DNA of 64,000 bases. Origin: Escherichia coli. GTDB taxonomy: Bacteria; Pseudomonadota; Gammaproteobacteria; Enterobacterales; Enterobacteriaceae. The stretch lies in the NCBI RefSeq assembly GCF_003334335.1, contig NZ_QOWQ01000009.1; one strand, 5' to 3'. Positions 4,712 through 10,700 of this stretch are shown here, piece after piece. A program made the position numbers. Within the stretch, counting starts at the first letter, position 1. Every line of letters begins with the position of its first letter.

Positions 4712-7700
4712 TAATTCGTTATTCAACGAGACGTAAAAACGCCGACCATTGGTCGGCGTTTTGCTTTTGTAGCGAGCACTTGCAGATATCGATAAGGGCC
4801 ACAATAAGCAGCCCTACGAAGATAATTACTTAGCTGCCTGAATATCAGCCAGCATTGGGGCAAGGGCTGGGTTGTCCTTAGCGAAGTTTGCGTACATTGG
4901 CTGTACTTTCTCGATAAACGGAGCTTTATCTACCTGGTAGACTTTCACGCCCATTTTATCCAGTTTTGCAAATTCTTGTTTCTCTTCCTCGCTCCACAAG
5001 TCTTTCATGTAGCTCATTGATTCTTTAGCTGCTTTTAATATAACTGCCTGATTTTCCTGGCTAAGTTTATCAAACGCAGCATTGCTCATCAGAACCACAT
5101 CGGGAACCATAGTGTGTTCGTCAAGGCTGAAGGATTTTGCCACTTCACCGTGACGCATGGTAGTCAGCGCCATCACGCTGTTTTCTGCCATATCGACCAC
5201 ACCCTGCTGTAAGGCTGTATACAACTCGCCGTAATCCAGTGGCGTCGGGTTACCGCCCATGACTTTGATCATTTCAACTGCGCCAGGGCTTGGCTGGACA
5301 CGGACTTTCATGCCTTTCAGATCGTCTGGTTTCAGTACTGGTTTATTGCCATAGAAACTGCGGGCGCCTCCATCATAAAAAGTCAGCCCGAAATAACCTT
5401 TGCTTTTCGTTGAGTCGAGGATTTTTCTCCCGATATCGCCCTGCATGACCTGATAATAATGATCACGATCGCGGAACAAATAAGGCAGGCTAAATAATTT
5501 ATAGGAATTTTCAAATGCTTCCATTTCTGCCGCATTGGTTTTTACCAGGGGAATAGCGCCAGAACGAATCAGCTCCATTGTTTCTCGTTGAGTACCCAAT
5601 GTTCCATTTGGATAAATACGAATAGTAATATCACCGTTAGAGTACTCTTTGCTCTTTTTCGCAAAGAACTCCATCGCTTTATGAACAGGATGAGACTTAT
5701 CCTGATTATGACTCAGTTTTAATGTCACTGCCCAGGACTGGCTTGCGGATAACATAAGAACAGCACCGATAATGCCAGCGGATACTTTTATTTTCATAGA
5801 TGTTCCTTTTCTAATAAATATGGCGGCAGGTGCCGCCAGTGAATGCGCATCAGTAGCCCAGTGCTCTTGGCAATGCCATACTGATTTGCGGAATATAGGT
5901 CACCATTGCCAGCACCAATACCATCACGGCATAGAATGGCAGCATAGGTTTGATAATTTTATTAATCGGTAATTTAGATACACTACAACCGACAAATAAC
6001 ACACTGCCTACAGGCGGAGTACAAATACCGATACACATGTTCAGTACCATGACAATACCAAAGTGAATCGGGTCCATGCCCAGTTCGGTGACAACCGGTA
6101 AAAATATCGGCGTAAAAATCAGTACCGCCGGTGTCATATCCATAAAAGTGCCGATAATCAACAGGATAATATTGATAATAAGCAGGATTATTATTGGGTT
6201 GTCAGAAATAGTGTTAAGCAAATCGAGAATCAGGAAGGGAACGTCAGCGTTTGACATTGCCCATGACATACCCATCGAAGAACCAATTAATAACAAGACA
6301 ATTGCAGTGGTAATAACGGATTCCAGAAATATTTTAGGTAAATCTTTAACTGAGATTTCACGATAAAGAACCAGTGCAAGGAAAAGGGTATAAATTACTG
6401 CAATTGCGGAGGCCTCTGTCGGGGTAAAAATACCACTTAATACACCCCCCATAATTAAAATAATCAGGAAAATACTGGGGATAGCCATCCATATCGCAAC
6501 GCCAGCCTGGCGTAAAGTCGGGCGTTCTGGCTTTGGATAACCGCGACGTACCGCGATAATACCGGCTATTACCATCAGTGCCAGACCCAGCAAAATTCCC
6601 GGAACATAACCCGCCAGGAACAGTGCGGCAATAGAAGTACCACCACTGACCAGTGAATAGACGATTAACGTATTACTTGGTGGAATAAGCAAACCCGTCG
6701 GGGCAGAGGCAACGTTAACCGCAGTACTGAATGCCGGGTCGTAACCCTCTTTAACCTGTTGCGGATGCATGACGCCGCCCATCGCAGCCGCCGAAGCCAC
6801 GGCTGAACCAGAAATTGCCCCGAACAGCATATTGGCGAGAATATTACAGTGGGCAAGTGAGCCTGGCAGACGACCGCCGAGAATACGGGCAAAGTTGATT
6901 AATCGTCGCGCTATTCCTCCATGGTTCATAATGTTGCCAGACAAGATAAAAAATGGGATTGCCAACAACGTAAAACTATCTAACCCGGAGGCTAACTTTT
7001 GGGAAACCACACTCAATGCTGAGTTGAAATCGAGTTGTGTGGAAATTGATGCCAGTGTCGATAAACCAATGGCATAAACAATAGGTACACCTAATGCCAA
7101 CATAAAAAAGAAGGCACCAAATAACACAATAATCGGTAACCAGTAATCCATAATTTCTCCATTCCTACTATGGTTGGTTGTTGTTTGTTATCTTTAGAGT
7201 GGTTGTTTAAGTTCGGTTAAAACCATATCTATGGTGTATATAATAATAAGTACACCACTAATCGGGATGCTCATATAGATATATCCCATTTGCCAGCCTA
7301 AAGCGGGCGAGGTCTGACCTGAATCGAATGTATCCATCGTTAATAGCCCACCACCATATACCATAATGATGGTTGCGAAGATAATAACGATAATCTGAAT
7401 ACACAAAAATAAATGACGTCGGGCTTTTCCTTTCAGCATCATAGGTAGCAGGTCAATCGCCAGATGCCGGTTTTGCCCTGCGGTGTATGCCCCACCAAAA
7501 AGTCCAAGACAAATAAAGAGCAAACGGCTGAGTTCATCTGTAAAAATACTGGGACTAGTAAATATAAATCGTGCAGCCACCTGCCACGTCACACATGCCA
7601 CGATGATCGCCAAAATGGTAATGTTCAATGCTGCAAGCAGAGCATTAATAGATCTAATTATATTTCGCATAGTGATTAACCTTTGCAATATCATTCATCC

Positions 7701-10700
7701 TGTGGCTGGTAAATTGTCCCATTAAGAAAACCAGGCCAGTTTTTTTCAAACCAAATACCTCGGATAATAGGAAACTCACGAACAGGTGTTTCTCTGACGT
7801 GAAAGATACCGTTGCAATAATGAATAAGTAGTTTATCTTTTTTATCCTCAGTACGCTCTGAACGAAAGCGCCAGGCATCACAAAAACCATTTCGTGTTTG
7901 CGGAATAGAATTTCCATCCCTGTCGAGAATAATACGTGCTCCCCGACTACCACCACCTGCGTCAATATAATGCGTTAATTGCGTTAATACGGCGGCAGAA
8001 GTCAGTGCCATATGCCGCCACATAAACAGCTCGGCAACTTCACCCACATGTTTGATAGCCAATCCATGCCGTTGGACAAATTCGCTCAATAGCAGGGCAT
8101 CGCGAGTGGCGCGTCGGACTTTATCGGCATGGCAAATAAATCCCGCATGGTCAGACATTCGTGCCTGAATTTTTTCTCTCACAACCGACAACGGCATCCC
8201 GGTCCCGTTATCGTGCGCCTGAGTAATGATCTCTCTTATAGAAGCCAGTGTAGGAGCTACCAGCTGTGCTATATCTCCATCAATATTCCGCTTTTGCGTG
8301 CAACCAATAAAACGTGCCAGACGAACAGCAAAAACCTGCCCGGCATTCAATGCTGCACCACCAGGGCGAGTGACGCCGTGTGTGCCAGCAACTTCCCCCA
8401 CGGCGAAACAGCCGGGCAGGGAGGTTTGTCCCCAGATATCCACTTCAATGCCGCCATTCATATGCTGATTATTCATGGCAAACTGCAAAGGCTGTGTGGT
8501 GAGATCGTAACCGTGCATCTTATACAGCGAGATAGACAGCGGATTCATTCGTTGCAGCCGTTCGATGGGCGATGGTGCCAGAGCGTCGTTATTTTCCAGA
8601 TACGCGCGAACGTCGTCGTCCAGTCGATCTAATGAGAACGGCAGGTCACCCGGCACCGCTTCAGGATTGCGATTGAAATCCATAAATACCTGACGCCCTG
8701 ATTGCTGCTCTTGCGCTACTGCCATATCTAACAAGCTGGAGCCAAAATCCATCACCCGAGTGGCGTGGAACGGCCACTGATAGCCTTTACGGAAAATGTT
8801 TGAAGCCAGCTCCTGGGTGGTGCGATAGTAATCCGCGAGGAAGTTATACTCGTTACCCTCAGCATCCACGGAATAGATATACGGGATCACCTGTACATAG
8901 GTGCCGGATAAATTCCACGGAAACGTGCTACGCGGCGTGCCTATACCAAACTGGCTTTCGGTCAGATTGGTTAGCGTCAGGCCTTCCTCCAGCGCCAGCC
9001 CCAGCGAGCCAAAACATTTGTGTGGGTACACACTGTCGCGATAAAGCTCGCCAGGCCCTCCTGTTGCCAGTACCACATTGGGCGCAGTCACAATTGCCAG
9101 CCCCCAAGGGTTATGGGCGCGATGACCGGTCGCGAGGATTGCCCCCGCAACACGGTCTTCGCCGTTTTCGTCACGCTGATGCAGCAGTTTAATCACTGTT
9201 GCACTGGTCAACACTGGAATGGCGAGGCGCTGTACTTCTTCCAACAGCACTTTCACCATTAACCTTGAGGTACGCGGCCCACACGAGGTTGCACGCCCGG
9301 CTTCGTCATGGTCGGTTTGATAACGAAGAATCGCGCCATAGCGATCTTCCGGTAATTCCAGACCAAGATATTGCAACCCGCCAAGAGTGTGCAGAGAACC
9401 TACCGCTTCGACATAAGCGGTGTCGTGATCCATCGCCCCACCGCTCGCCAGTGCCTCTGCCAGTTTGGTGAAGTTGTCGCCGTTGCCCGCGGTAGCGGCG
9501 GTAAACAGTGTCTGTTTATCGGAACCAGAACATGCCGACGTCCCCATATATAACCCGGCGGTGGCGATCAGCACATTTTGCTGGCGGCGTTTAAGTTCCA
9601 CAGCTGCACGCAGCCCGGCTGCACCACTGCCGACTACCAGGGCATCTGTTTGCCAGAGTGGGTAATCAACACCGTCTACCGTGACAACCCATGCGGGCTC
9701 TGCCTGTGCAAAACCCTTTGGGAAAGTAACGTGCGTCAGCGCATCAAGGATGGTGTCATCAAGCTGACTCATGCATCCTCCATCGGCGTAAACAGGCTAC
9801 TTTCCATCAGGCGTGGGTGCTTGATAATTGGACGGAAAGCCATATACGGCAGAATGTCGCGCTCAATCTCCACACCCGGCGCGATTTCAATTAATTCAAC
9901 GCCTTCTGCCGTTAACTGGAATACTGCGCGTTCAGTGATATACAACACTTCCTGACCACTTTGCTGTGCGTAGGCGGCGCTAAAAGTGATTTTTTCCACC
10001 TTGGTAACCAGTTTAGGGATTTGACCTGACTGGGCGATATGCAAGCCATCTGGTGTTATATCGATCTTGCTGCCTTTAGCGTCGAACGTGCCGCAGAACA
10101 CCACTTTACGGGCATTTTGCGCAATTTCGAGAAATCCGCCGGGGCCAATCAGATTGCCATTGAGATGGGAGACGTTGACGTTACCGTACTGATCCATCTC
10201 TCCCATGCCGAGGAAGGTGATATCGATCCCTCCGCCACTGTAGAACTCAAATTGATCGAGTGATGGAATAATGGCATCGGCGTTGCGGGCGCAGCCGAAA
10301 AACGCATCATCCAGCATCATGCCGTTATGTACGCCTTGCTCGACGCTCAGCCATAAACTTTGGTAAGGAACGCCTTCGCGCAGCGCTACTCCTGGAATGC
10401 CGCCGGGAATACCAAAGCCAAAGTTGGTTGAAGCGCCAGCTACCAGTTCGCGTGCTGCCCGACGGGCAATCAGGCGACGTACCGGATGACTAACCAGTTC
10501 AATAGCGTCGTTAGAACTCAGACGGCGATGTTGGCCGCTGATGGTCAGGTCGTAACCGCCAAGATAGGTTTGTGGTTGTTCGCGGTGTTCAACGATGCCA
10601 TCAACCAGAATGCCCGGTAATTTGACCCGGCGTGGTTCAATCGCGCCAGCTTCCAGCACATCGCGTACCTGTACGAACACTTTGCCGCCGCTGTTGTGTG

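What the first reader, a model, noticed from the sequence alone, without database searches (positions are those of the whole stretch)
7691..9772. Unusually long FAD_binding_2 flavoprotein, translationally coupled on both sides
At 693 aa it is larger than typical soluble members of this fold that I know (L-aspartate oxidase, TcuA and KstD are around 470-560 aa), with extra N- and C-terminal sequence. It lacks the histidine context used for covalent FAD in SdhA/FrdA. Its start overlaps the CoA-transferase stop and its stop overlaps the DctQ start (ATGA at 9769-9772 and 7691-7694), which suggests stoichiometric co-expression. It is a candidate enoate or enoyl-CoA reductase/dehydrogenase that defines the chemistry of the island.
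Basis: partly seen in the sequence, partly recalled or inferred. Interest (0 to 1): 0.65.

Follow-up and report, generated by a model that had tools for sequence, protein, structure and literature searches.

The report
Uncharacterised SdhA/NadB-like flavoprotein in E. coli
This is a real, intact gene for a stand-alone flavoprotein built like the succinate dehydrogenase, fumarate reductase and aspartate oxidase flavoproteins; it belongs to a large family of unknown function and sits in an optional E. coli operon that appears to break down an imported uronic-acid-like sugar acid, partly as a CoA thioester.

Summary
The 693-codon ORF at 7691-9772 (minus strand) is real, intact and under strong purifying selection. 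It carries a full FAD_binding_2 domain.

The window is E. coli chromosome. The gene is part of an accessory operon between ytfB and rplI that is present in 3126 of 5426 complete genomes.

The length is not anomalous. The protein has the four-domain SdhA/FrdA/NadB architecture, and at least 422 50%-identity clusters of 600-700 aa relatives share it. It is not a frameshift fusion.

It lacks the histidine used for covalent FAD (Cys81 here) and the HPT histidine. It keeps the His437/Arg469 pair.

The ATGA overlap with the CoA-transferase stop is real and conserved in Escherichia, Klebsiella and Salmonella. The overlap with DctQ is probably not the real start, which is conserved at 7670.

The "enoyl-CoA reductase/dehydrogenase" reading is partly supported. 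The island always carries an enoyl-CoA hydratase, and a rare variant swaps the crotonase type for a MaoC type. The island has no other enzyme to make or reduce an enoyl-CoA.

Family-wide, however, the usual neighbours are sugar dehydrogenases, KDG kinase, KDPG aldolase and OYE-like flavoproteins, not CoA enzymes. The transporters point to a hexuronate-like substrate. The function remains untested, and I found no paper on it.

The parts
7691..9772 (-). FAD-dependent oxidoreductase gene (693 aa), a four-domain flavoprotein of the SdhA/FrdA/NadB class
9647..9772 (-). N-terminal extension, residues 1-42 (a helix plus a beta-hairpin before the Rossmann beta1). It is present only in the closest (52-79% identity) relatives.
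   Evidence: DSSP on the model. Relatives at 36-41% identity start aligning at residues ~29-43.
8948..9646 (-). FAD-binding domain, first segment (residues 43-275). It contains GSGAAG at 48-53. Cys81 sits where SdhA has His45. The GSDKQT signature is at 83-88. Boundaries are approximate.
   Evidence: Profile alignment to NadB and SdhA. Invariant columns.
8543..8947 (-). Enlarged, divergent capping domain (residues ~276-410). Family-specific invariant motifs are SQFGIG (replacing QFHPTG), WNLSGTYxQ (286-294) and KGYQWPF (329-335), plus D349, R360, Y391 and R405.
   Evidence: This segment does not align with any solved NadB or SdhA sequence. Invariant columns.
8333..8542 (-). FAD-binding domain, second segment (residues ~411-480). 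QH437MNGG and GTHGVTR469PGG correspond to NadB His351/Arg386.
   Evidence: HMM alignment to 1chu and 1knp, the latter being the R386L mutant.
7958..8332 (-). Helical domain (residues ~481-605)
   Evidence: Aligns with the helical domains of NadB, SdhA and TfrA. DSSP shows helices 473-604. dN/dS 0.09-0.13.
7694..7957 (-). C-terminal domain (residues ~606-693, with SRG610-611 matching the SdhA 'ESRGAH' motif). It is the most variable part and is mosaic: it was acquired together with the TRAP genes.
   Evidence: Window versus ATCC 8739: dS is 0.04 for residues 1-500, 0.17 for 501-605 and 2.17 for 606-693. Amino-acid identity drops to 47-66% after residue 600. GC is 0.405 in 7001-8000.
9769..11310 (-). 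Family-I CoA transferase (YdiF/FadX-like, 513 aa). Its stop overlaps the FAD start (ATGA).
   Evidence: PDB 2ahu YdiF E 1e-113. NCBIfam FadX 383 bits. Glu324 lies in SVEQG.
11320..12102 (-). Crotonase-type enoyl-CoA hydratase with both catalytic glutamates (E117, E137)
   Evidence: NCBIfam enoyl-CoA hydratase families. Sequence motifs GGGIE and NPEV.
12106..12948 (-). Xylose-isomerase-like TIM-barrel protein (AP_endonuc_2), probably a keto-sugar isomerase or epimerase
   Evidence: PDB 3qc0 and 3ju2 E 1e-84. The closest characterised structures are IolI and ketose 3-epimerases. Weak IolO and Hyi NCBIfam hits.
12958..13749 (-). FabG-like SDR (263 aa)
   Evidence: NCBIfam NF009386, 417 bits, above its cut-off of 250. 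PDB 4da9 and 4one.
13818..13839 (.). Perfect palindrome ATCAACCA-N6-TGGTTGAT in the divergent promoter region, a candidate TetR operator
   Evidence: Its function is inferred only.
13962..14609 (+). Divergently transcribed TetR/AcrR regulator
   Evidence: NCBIfam TetR families. RefSeq annotation.
7194..7670 (-). TRAP small permease DctQ. The conserved start is at 7670. An upstream in-frame ATG at 7694 overlaps the FAD stop.
   Evidence: RefSeq start. K. huaxiensis DctQ N-terminus.
5850..7151 (-). TRAP large permease DctM
   Evidence: TIGR00786, 458 bits.
4826..5797 (-). TRAP solute-binding protein DctP of the hexuronate-binder clade
   Evidence: The best solved relatives are 4ovr, 4x8r, 4n8y, 4n15 and 4n91, with E 1e-71 to 1e-62. 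4X8R, 4N8Y, 4N91 and 4MHF are glucuronate or galacturonate complexes (PMC11668362, PMC7660916). A 59%-identical Vibrio cholerae SBP lies in a UxaC/UxuA/UxuB/KdgK/Eda/GH2 locus.

Best explanation
Shown:
- The gene encodes a cytoplasmic, stand-alone flavoprotein with the four-domain build of SdhA, FrdA and NadB: FAD domain, capping domain, helical domain and C-terminal domain.
- It lacks the histidine that SdhA/FrdA use for covalent FAD, so bound FAD would most likely be non-covalent (flavin binding itself is inferred from the domain match).
- It belongs to a large uncharacterised subfamily of 600-700 aa proteins.
- It keeps the His/Arg pair (H437, R469) that aligns with NadB His351 and Arg386. 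In fumarate reductases and aspartate oxidase that pair holds a substrate carboxyl or carbonyl over the flavin (role from my own knowledge).
- The rest of the active-site lid is replaced by its own invariant motifs.

Inferred:
- It carries out a two-electron oxidation or reduction across the C-alpha/C-beta bond next to a carboxyl or thioester group.
- In E. coli it is the only flavin redox enzyme of a TetR-controlled, probably catabolic operon. A TRAP or ACS-type MFS transporter imports a hexuronate-like hydroxy-carboxylic acid.
- The YdiF-like transferase converts an intermediate to its CoA thioester.
- The flavoprotein interconverts the saturated and 2,3-unsaturated thioester.
- The enoyl-CoA hydratase (crotonase, or MaoC in a rare variant) and the FabG-like SDR handle the 3-hydroxy and 3-oxo forms.
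- The TIM-barrel enzyme isomerises a keto-sugar-like intermediate.

The direction is open. It could be oxidative, like beta-oxidation or the cyclohexanecarboxylate (Bad) route. It could be reductive, like carnitine (CaiB/CaiD/CaiA) metabolism.
For: - Fold and domains.
- Retained H437/R469 and lost HPT-His and covalent His.
- Family size and length.
- Purifying selection, with dN/dS 0.03-0.04 over residues 1-500.
- Operon structure and the conserved CoAT-FAD overlap in four E. coli variants, Klebsiella and Salmonella.
- The crotonase has both catalytic Glu residues.
- The crotonase is replaced by a MaoC dehydratase in variant islands, which argues that the hydratase step is integral.
- No acyl-CoA dehydrogenase or other ene-reductase is present in the island.
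- Hexuronate-type transporters.
- CoAT/ECH co-occur with relatives in other phyla (L013, L031, L043, L069, L079).
Against: - CoA genes accompany the family in only 7 of 80 loci. SDR is present in 36, KDG-kinase-like genes in up to 25, OYE-like in 19 and Eda in 14.
- Brenneria carries close SDR and TIM orthologues (71-74%) plus the FAD protein without CoAT or ECH.
- L013 and L069 have their own acyl-CoA dehydrogenases, and L013 also ETF genes, beside the FAD protein. There the FAD protein is not needed as the acyl-CoA dehydrogenase.
- No electron donor or acceptor partner is encoded in the E. coli island.
- The catalytic Arg of fumarate reductases cannot be located by alignment.
- No substrate has been tested and no paper was found.
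Confidence: 0.4

Rival explanations
1. The flavoprotein acts on a free sugar acid or keto-sugar, not a CoA ester, together with its family-wide partner dehydrogenase (SDR or Gfo/Idh) and the TIM-barrel enzyme. Possible reactions are C=C reduction or formation next to a carboxylate or ring ketone, or NadB-like C-H oxidation of an alpha-hydroxy acid. In E. coli the CoA transferase and hydratase would be an add-on that processes its product.
For: - Neighbour statistics over 80 loci favour sugar genes: SDR 36, Gfo/Idh 23, KDG-kinase-like up to 25, Eda 14, GMC 17 and TIM 11, against CoAT 7.
- GH28 pectinase genes lie beside the cluster in L070 and L065.
- A KDG-kinase-like gene overlaps the FAD stop in alphaproteobacteria.
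- Brenneria has the SDR-TIM-FAD-MFS operon without CoA genes.
- The retained His/Arg pair binds carboxylates in FRD and NadB (their role is from my own knowledge).
Against: - The strictly conserved 4-nt CoAT/FAD overlap in enterobacteria.
- The island's hydratase needs an enoyl-CoA or 3-hydroxyacyl-CoA, and no other island enzyme makes or removes a C=C.
- NadB residue E121 aligns with Leu171 (E121 numbering from my own knowledge) and H244 with Gly276.
Confidence: 0.35
2. It is a reductase used as an electron sink, analogous to fumarate, urocanate, acrylate or cinnamate reductases or to CaiA. It would reduce an unsaturated acid or thioester derived from the imported substrate during anaerobic gut growth.
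For: - A natural fusion of an OYE-like Oxidored_FMN domain to this family exists (P0150).
- OYE-like genes are adjacent in 19 loci. From my own knowledge, OYE-like modules feed NADH electrons to FAD_binding_2 reductases in Klebsiella and Vibrio enzymes.
- The combination of CoA transferase, hydratase and flavoprotein mirrors CaiB/CaiD/CaiA.
Against: - The E. coli island encodes no OYE, FMN_bind, haem or ETF module.
- The CRP-like site is not statistically supported, and no FNR-type TTGAT-N4-ATCAA site was seen on reading the promoter region.
- The OYE partner could equally be a separate ene-reductase.
Confidence: 0.15
3. It is simply a second fumarate reductase, succinate dehydrogenase or L-aspartate oxidase paralogue.
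For: Some database entries name it 'succinate dehydrogenase flavoprotein subunit'. The best structural matches are SdhA, FrdA and NadB.
Against: - Scores are far below every curated cut-off: NadB 100.7 against 452.75, and SdhA/FrdA 80.7 against 567.3.
- Sequence identity is only 15-21%.
- The HPT-His is replaced by Gly and the covalent His is absent.
- The capping domain cannot be aligned.
- There is no Fe-S subunit gene in the operon.
Confidence: 0.02
4. The long ORF is an artefact: a frameshifted fusion of two genes, or a decaying pseudogene.
For: Some strains carry IS insertions or truncated or fused copies.
Against: - Six orthologues are intact at 689-694 aa.
- dN/dS is below 0.25 in every segment.
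- One confident single-chain model covers the whole length.
- Relatives align end to end.
Confidence: 0.01

Closest known systems
L-aspartate oxidase NadB (E. coli 1chu/1knr)
   Different: Identity is 21%. TIGR00551 scores 100.7 against a cut-off of 452.75. NadB Glu121 and His244 are Leu171 and Gly276 here (Glu121 numbering from my own knowledge). The capping domain is larger and cannot be aligned. There is an extra N-terminal 42 aa and a roughly 90-aa C-terminal domain. The genomic context is catabolic, not NAD synthesis.
SdhA/FrdA flavoprotein subunits of complex II
   Same: They are the best Foldseek matches (E 3e-30, target TM 0.72-0.80). Both have the same four-domain layout, including a C-terminal domain and the SRG motif of the helical domain.
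   Different: This protein has no His for 8-alpha-histidyl FAD (Cys81), no HPT motif and no identifiable catalytic Arg. There are no SdhB/FrdB or membrane-anchor genes. Identity is 15-19%.
Soluble 2-enoate reductases of the FAD_binding_2 class (urocanate reductase UrdA, flavocytochrome c3, Osm1; Klebsiella/Vibrio NADH:fumarate, acrylate and cinnamate reductases)
   Different: Those enzymes lack the helical and C-terminal domains (361-380 residues aligned). They carry haem, FMN_bind or OYE electron-input domains that the E. coli protein lacks.
3-ketosteroid dehydrogenases (KstD, delta4-(5alpha)-KstD) and cyclohexanone dehydrogenase
   Different: They are more distant in fold, with no helical or C-terminal domain. 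Their catalytic Tyr/Gly residues were not examined here.
Carnitine (CaiT/CaiB/CaiD/CaiA) and cyclohexanecarboxylate (AliA/AliB/BadK/BadH/BadI) CoA pathways
   Same: The operon logic is the same: transporter, CoA activation, flavin-dependent C-alpha/C-beta redox, crotonase hydratase and, in Bad, an SDR (own knowledge, compared).
   Different: The flavoenzyme in those pathways is an acyl-CoA dehydrogenase fold served by ETF. Here it is an SdhA/NadB-fold protein, and a TIM-barrel sugar isomerase and hexuronate-type transporters are present.

Membership tests
Pfam FAD_binding_2 (PF00890) | Significant full-length match to the profile | tested here: met
   E 8.4e-28, residues 43-475 over model positions 1-414 of 414.
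SdhA/FrdA flavoprotein subunit | Four-domain fold (FAD, capping, helical, C-terminal) | tested here: met
SdhA/FrdA flavoprotein subunit | Histidine for covalent 8-alpha-N3-histidyl FAD (E. coli SdhA His45) | tested here: not met
   His45 aligns with Cys81. The family pattern at this position is N/C/M.
SdhA/FrdA flavoprotein subunit | Dicarboxylate site: His of the QFHPTG motif and the catalytic Arg of the capping domain | tested here: not met
   The motif is SQFGIG, and HMMER treats 'hpt' as an insertion in SdhA. The capping domain cannot be aligned, so the Arg cannot be placed.
SdhA/FrdA flavoprotein subunit | Adjacent Fe-S subunit and membrane-anchor genes | tested here: not met
   The operon content is fully listed and contains none.
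SdhA/FrdA flavoprotein subunit | Curated NCBIfam score cut-off | tested here: not met
   TIGR01812 scores 80.7 bits against 567.3. The best hit is TfrA at 126.5 against 718.
L-aspartate oxidase NadB | Curated score cut-off and the substrate residues Glu121 and His244 | tested here: not met
   TIGR00551 scores 100.7 against 452.75. Glu121 aligns with Leu171 (Glu121 numbering from my own knowledge) and His244 with Gly276.
Soluble fumarate/urocanate/acrylate reductases (Fcc3, UrdA and similar) | Electron-input domain (haem, FMN_bind or OYE) in the same chain or operon | tested here: not met
   No extra Pfam domain is found in the E. coli protein and none is encoded in the island. The feature is present in some distant relatives.
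Enoyl-CoA reductase / acyl-CoA dehydrogenase (functional class, not a fold family) | Turnover of a CoA thioester at C2-C3 | not testable with these tools
   Only context supports it: the overlap with CoAT, the hydratase retained or replaced, and no ACAD in the island.
Uncharacterised 600-700 aa FAD_binding_2 subfamily (this family) | End-to-end alignment plus the invariant motifs GSDKQT, SQFGxG, WNLSGTYxQ, KGYQWPF, QHxNGG, RPGG and SRG | tested here: met
   45-sequence alignment at 33-79% identity with these columns invariant. 422 clusters at E <= 1e-30.

The most novel reading that the evidence does not exclude
The island encodes a CoA-thioester-dependent route for a uronic-acid-like sugar acid. 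Activation of the C6 carboxylate as a thioester would make the C4-C5 bond reactive, allowing dehydration by the crotonase or MaoC hydratase and flavin-dependent C4=C5 redox by this protein. The SDR and TIM enzymes would then convert the product towards KDG-type intermediates. This would be a new kind of sugar-acid catabolism. It would also give a first function to a flavoprotein family found from Enterobacteriaceae to Planctomycetota, where it sits beside KDG kinase, KDPG aldolase and pectinase genes.
Probability: 0.15. Interest if true: 0.8.

Novelty: new variant of a known kind. Interest (0 to 1): 0.5.

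Why it matters
- About 58% of complete E. coli genomes carry this operon, as do Klebsiella oxytoca-group, Salmonella and Citrobacter strains. K-12 lacks it, which is probably why it has never been studied.
- It combines hexuronate-type uptake with CoA-thioester enzymes and a flavoprotein family that has no characterised member. Solving it would add a nutrient-use trait relevant to gut colonisation.
- It would also assign a function to several hundred sequence clusters now annotated only as 'FAD-binding protein' or, wrongly, as 'succinate dehydrogenase flavoprotein subunit'.
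- If the substrate is ordinary and the enzyme a plain dehydrogenase, the gain is a better annotation only.

Tried and rejected
- Ten literature searches (protein accession, gene-set keywords, ytfA/ytfB/rplI island, PDB codes 7VPF/3JU2/3QC0, dihydroshikimate/quinate, keto-sugar keywords) found no paper on the island or the family. Only the TRAP-ligand search was productive.
- A PADLOC scan for defence functions found no hits.
- A quinate/shikimate-type substrate was considered because of the ring-acid transporters and the K-12 ydi-cluster analogy. The TIM protein is not close to 3-dehydroshikimate dehydratases in the PDB. The idea is kept only as a possibility.
- The CRP site at 13841-13856 has one mismatch, and such sites occur at chance frequency in the window: 2 found, 1.93 expected. 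It is not used as evidence.
- The fused 1078-aa CoAT-FAD protein (P0002) is an in-frame deletion, not a natural fusion.
- Repeats and Rfam families within the island are nothing beyond chance.
- Short metagenomic contigs for P0123 and P0127 gave little context.
- A near-identity search with the L088 TIM-CoAT junction found nothing in complete E. coli genomes. The MaoC gene search did find matches, in 2 genomes.

Full report
**What is there**

The minus-strand ORF 7691..9772 starts with ATG and encodes 693 residues without internal stops. The window is E. coli chromosome. The gene matches at 80-100% identity in 3126 of 5426 complete E. coli genomes and is annotated there as 'FAD-dependent oxidoreductase', WP_000080339.

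It lies in an accessory block between ytfB and rplI. A divergent TetR gene faces the operon. The operon then runs: FabG-like SDR, xylose-isomerase-like TIM-barrel protein, crotonase-type enoyl-CoA hydratase, YdiF-like family-I CoA transferase, the flavoprotein, and TRAP DctQ/DctM/DctP. No Rfam family and no meaningful repeat lies inside the block.

**Domain content and fold**

Pfam FAD_binding_2 covers residues 43-475 over the whole model, E 8.4e-28. All curated NCBIfam models (TfrA, NadB, SdhA/FrdA) match far below their cut-offs.

An AlphaFold2 model built on a 45-sequence alignment is confident (pLDDT 92.4, pTM 0.94).
- Foldseek finds SdhA/FrdA first (E 3e-30, target TM 0.72-0.80), then PAPS/APS reductase A and NadB.

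The protein therefore has the four-domain layout of complex-II flavoproteins. The differences are a 42-residue N-terminal extension, an enlarged capping domain and a roughly 90-residue C-terminal domain.

**Is the length unusual?**

Only relative to NadB, TcuA and KstD. SdhA, FrdA and AprA chains are 577-660 aa.

An exhaustive search of 1.84 billion representative proteins found 3309 relatives, 422 of them at E <= 1e-30. Most are 600-700 aa and align over query residues ~30-689.

Orthologues in E. coli variants, K. oxytoca, K. huaxiensis and Salmonella are intact at 689-694 aa. dN/dS is 0.03-0.04 for residues 1-500, 0.09-0.13 for 501-605 and 0.18-0.24 for 606-693. The 'frameshifted fusion' refutation test therefore fails. 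This is one gene.

**Active-site comparison**

In the profile alignment to E. coli SdhA, His45 (covalent FAD) falls on Cys81. The family has N, C or M at that position.

The QFHPTG motif of SdhA and NadB is SQFGIG here, so NadB His244 corresponds to an invariant Gly276. NadB Glu121 corresponds to Leu171 (Glu121 numbering from my own knowledge). NadB His351 and Arg386 are kept as His437 and Arg469.

The capping domain (about residues 276-410) does not align with any solved relative. It carries family-invariant motifs: WNLSGTYxQ, KGYQWPF, D349, R360, Y391 and R405.

The protein is thus not an SdhA, FrdA or NadB orthologue. It does retain the part of the site that holds a carboxyl or carbonyl group over the flavin (the role of that pair is from my own knowledge).

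**Translational coupling**

Upstream, the CoA-transferase TGA and the flavoprotein ATG share ATGA at 9769-9772, and a GGAGGA lies 3 nt before the ATG. The same 4-nt overlap is annotated in every variant and genus examined.

Downstream, an in-frame ATG at 7694 does overlap the stop. However, RefSeq starts DctQ at 7670. The K. huaxiensis DctQ begins MRKMIKTINA, which aligns with Met9 of the long E. coli ORF. It lies 90 nt after its flavoprotein gene. MFS-type islands have gaps of 51-106 nt. Coupling by overlap is therefore established on the 5' side only.

**Locus variation**

At least four forms exist at the same chromosomal site:
- TRAP type, as in the window. About 1451 genomes cover at least 80% of an 11.8-kb query.
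- ACS-family MFS type. Examples are ATCC 8739, K. oxytoca and Salmonella.
- MFS plus hipBA, as in ST131.
- A rare form with no crotonase gene and a MaoC dehydratase after the MFS gene. It is found in 2 of 5426 complete genomes and in other assemblies.

K-12-type genomes lack the island.

The TRAP form is mosaic. Against ATCC 8739, synonymous divergence is 0.04 for codons 1-500, 0.17 for 501-605 and 2.17 for 606-693. GC falls from 0.51-0.55 to 0.40-0.46 across 8000-5000. The 3' end of the flavoprotein gene and the TRAP genes therefore came in together, from a donor that already had a homologous flavoprotein next to a TRAP system. K. huaxiensis has such an arrangement.

**What the transporters say**

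The closest solved relatives of DctP (E 1e-71 to 1e-62) are TRAP binding proteins. Several of them were crystallised with D-glucuronate or D-galacturonate: 4X8R, 4N8Y, 4N91 and 4MHF (PMC11668362, PMC7660916).
- The two arginines and the asparagine of the uronate site are conserved in the alignments.
- A Tyr-to-His and a Glu-to-Gln change suggest a related but different ligand. This is my reading.

A 59%-identical Vibrio cholerae protein sits in an Eda-KdgK-UxaC-UxuB-GH31-DctMQ | DctP-GH2-GntR-UxuA locus.

The alternative MFS carrier belongs to the D-galactonate/hexuronate (ACS) family, with TIGR00893 at 312 bits. Brenneria uses a PcaK-like carrier. The substrate is most likely a ring-forming hydroxy-carboxylic acid of the uronate type.

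**What the family context says**

In 80 loci from species-representative genomes, the neighbours within about 10 kb are counted below.

| Neighbour | Loci |
|---|---|
| SDR | 36 |
| KDG-kinase-like (two seed types, 13 + 12; a few loci hit both) | up to 25 |
| Gfo/Idh/MocA dehydrogenases (two seed types, 16 + 7) | 23 |
| OYE-like flavoproteins | 19 |
| GMC oxidoreductases | 17 |
| KDPG aldolase | 14 |
| Enoyl-CoA hydratase | 13 |
| TIM-barrel | 11 |
| CoA transferase | 7 |
| Acyl-CoA dehydrogenase | 4 |

Further points:
- In Phycisphaerae the cluster OYE-SDR-Eda-(BNR_4 protein)-FAD-KdgK can be followed by three GH28 genes and a sodium symporter.
- In alphaproteobacteria the order is Gfo/Idh-FAD-KdgK, preceded by two GMC genes, LacI and a sugar ABC transporter.
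- Brenneria has TetR | SDR-TIM-FAD-MFS only.
- A second enterobacterial type has SDR-Gfo/Idh-TIM-MFS-FAD.
- One relative is a natural fusion of an OYE-like domain to this family.
- AFDB50 relatives are all unnamed.

The family is therefore tied to sugar-acid catabolism that feeds the KDG/KDPG branch. Its constant partner is an NAD(P)-dependent dehydrogenase, not CoA chemistry.

**How it most likely works in E. coli**

Shown:
- the fold, the absence of the covalent-FAD histidine, and the retained His/Arg pair;
- the operon membership and the conserved overlap with the CoA transferase;
- a hydratase with both catalytic glutamates, which is replaced by a different hydratase fold in a variant.

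Inferred:
- An enoyl-CoA / 3-hydroxyacyl-CoA step is integral to the pathway. The island has no acyl-CoA dehydrogenase or other ene-reductase. The flavoprotein is therefore the enzyme that makes or reduces the C2=C3 bond of the thioester.
- The SDR handles the 3-hydroxy/3-oxo step, and the TIM-barrel enzyme isomerises a keto-sugar-like intermediate.

The direction is undecided.
- The lack of any electron-input module in E. coli fits an oxidative, beta-oxidation-like or Bad-like route.
- The OYE fusion and OYE neighbours elsewhere fit a reductive, Cai-like route.

I put 0.40 on this thioester model. I put 0.35 on the alternative that the enzyme works on the free sugar acid with SDR and TIM, with the CoA enzymes acting afterwards. 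I put 0.15 specifically on an electron-sink reductase role.

**Novelty and verdict**

The gene is long known as an annotated ORF. Neither it nor any family member has an assigned function, and ten full-text searches found nothing on the island. It is a distinct subfamily of a well-known flavoprotein superfamily, in an unusual mix of hexuronate-type uptake and CoA enzymes. I rate it a new variant of a known kind and moderately interesting.

The exceptions are the significance of the length and the DctQ overlap.

Noticed in passing
window 4826-14609; L002, L086, L087, L089, L090, L092: The same chromosomal site (ytfB-rplI) holds at least four island forms in Escherichia: TRAP, MFS, MFS plus hipBA, and MFS plus MaoC without the crotonase. 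K-12-type genomes have an empty site. Klebsiella and Salmonella carry the island at the syntenic position.
   Followed up: yes
window ~7700-7970 (codons ~600-693 of the flavoprotein gene) and 4826-7690: There is a recombination breakpoint inside the flavoprotein gene. The C-terminal domain and the low-GC TRAP genes were acquired together. Against ATCC 8739, dS jumps from 0.04 to 2.17.
   Followed up: yes
window 13818-13839: A perfect 8-bp inverted repeat, ATCAACCA-N6-TGGTTGAT, lies between the divergent TetR and SDR genes and is a likely operator. A one-mismatch CRP-like site abuts it at 13841-13856, but such sites occur at chance frequency in the window.
   Followed up: partly
P0002 (1078 aa), P0034, P0086: Database proteins that look like CoA-transferase-flavoprotein fusions exist. 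P0002 is an in-frame deletion joining CoAT residue ~390 to flavoprotein residue 4, not a natural fusion. P0034 and P0086 were not examined.
   Followed up: partly
P0150 (1084 aa): This is a natural fusion of an OYE-like Oxidored_FMN domain to a member of this flavoprotein family. OYE-like genes are adjacent in 19 of 80 related loci. The OYE module may be the electron-input partner.
   Followed up: partly
L070 13194-20637 and L065: In Phycisphaerae and Sedimentisphaerales MAGs the OYE-SDR-Eda-FAD-KdgK cluster is followed by three GH28 (polygalacturonase-like) genes and a sodium/solute symporter. No uxaC, uxaB or uxaA-type gene was evident among the neighbours I annotated, though not every ORF was checked. 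This may be an alternative galacturonate route.
   Followed up: partly
L055 8423-9937 and five similar loci: A 504-aa BNR_4 beta-propeller protein of unknown function sits immediately upstream of the flavoprotein gene in Phycisphaerae.
   Followed up: partly
H1 (NZ_CP103974.1) and H2 (NZ_CP173445.1): Some E. coli strains carry IS5 or IS1 insertions inside the flavoprotein gene. In ST131 strain MNCRE44 the adjacent hipA is frameshifted.
   Followed up: no
window 3193-3277, 23076-23198, 26550-26729, 35713-35791, 41954-42031, 52208-52323: Rfam matches elsewhere in the window are the RpsF leader, ES239 sRNA, STnc450 and ES036, two naRNA4 copies and a magnesium riboswitch. These are ordinary E. coli features unrelated to the finding.
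   Followed up: no
window 8129-8632, 8800-9192, 9578-9955 (+ strand): Antisense ORFs of 125-167 aa lie inside the flavoprotein gene. They are not annotated in RefSeq and are probably chance ORFs.
   Followed up: no
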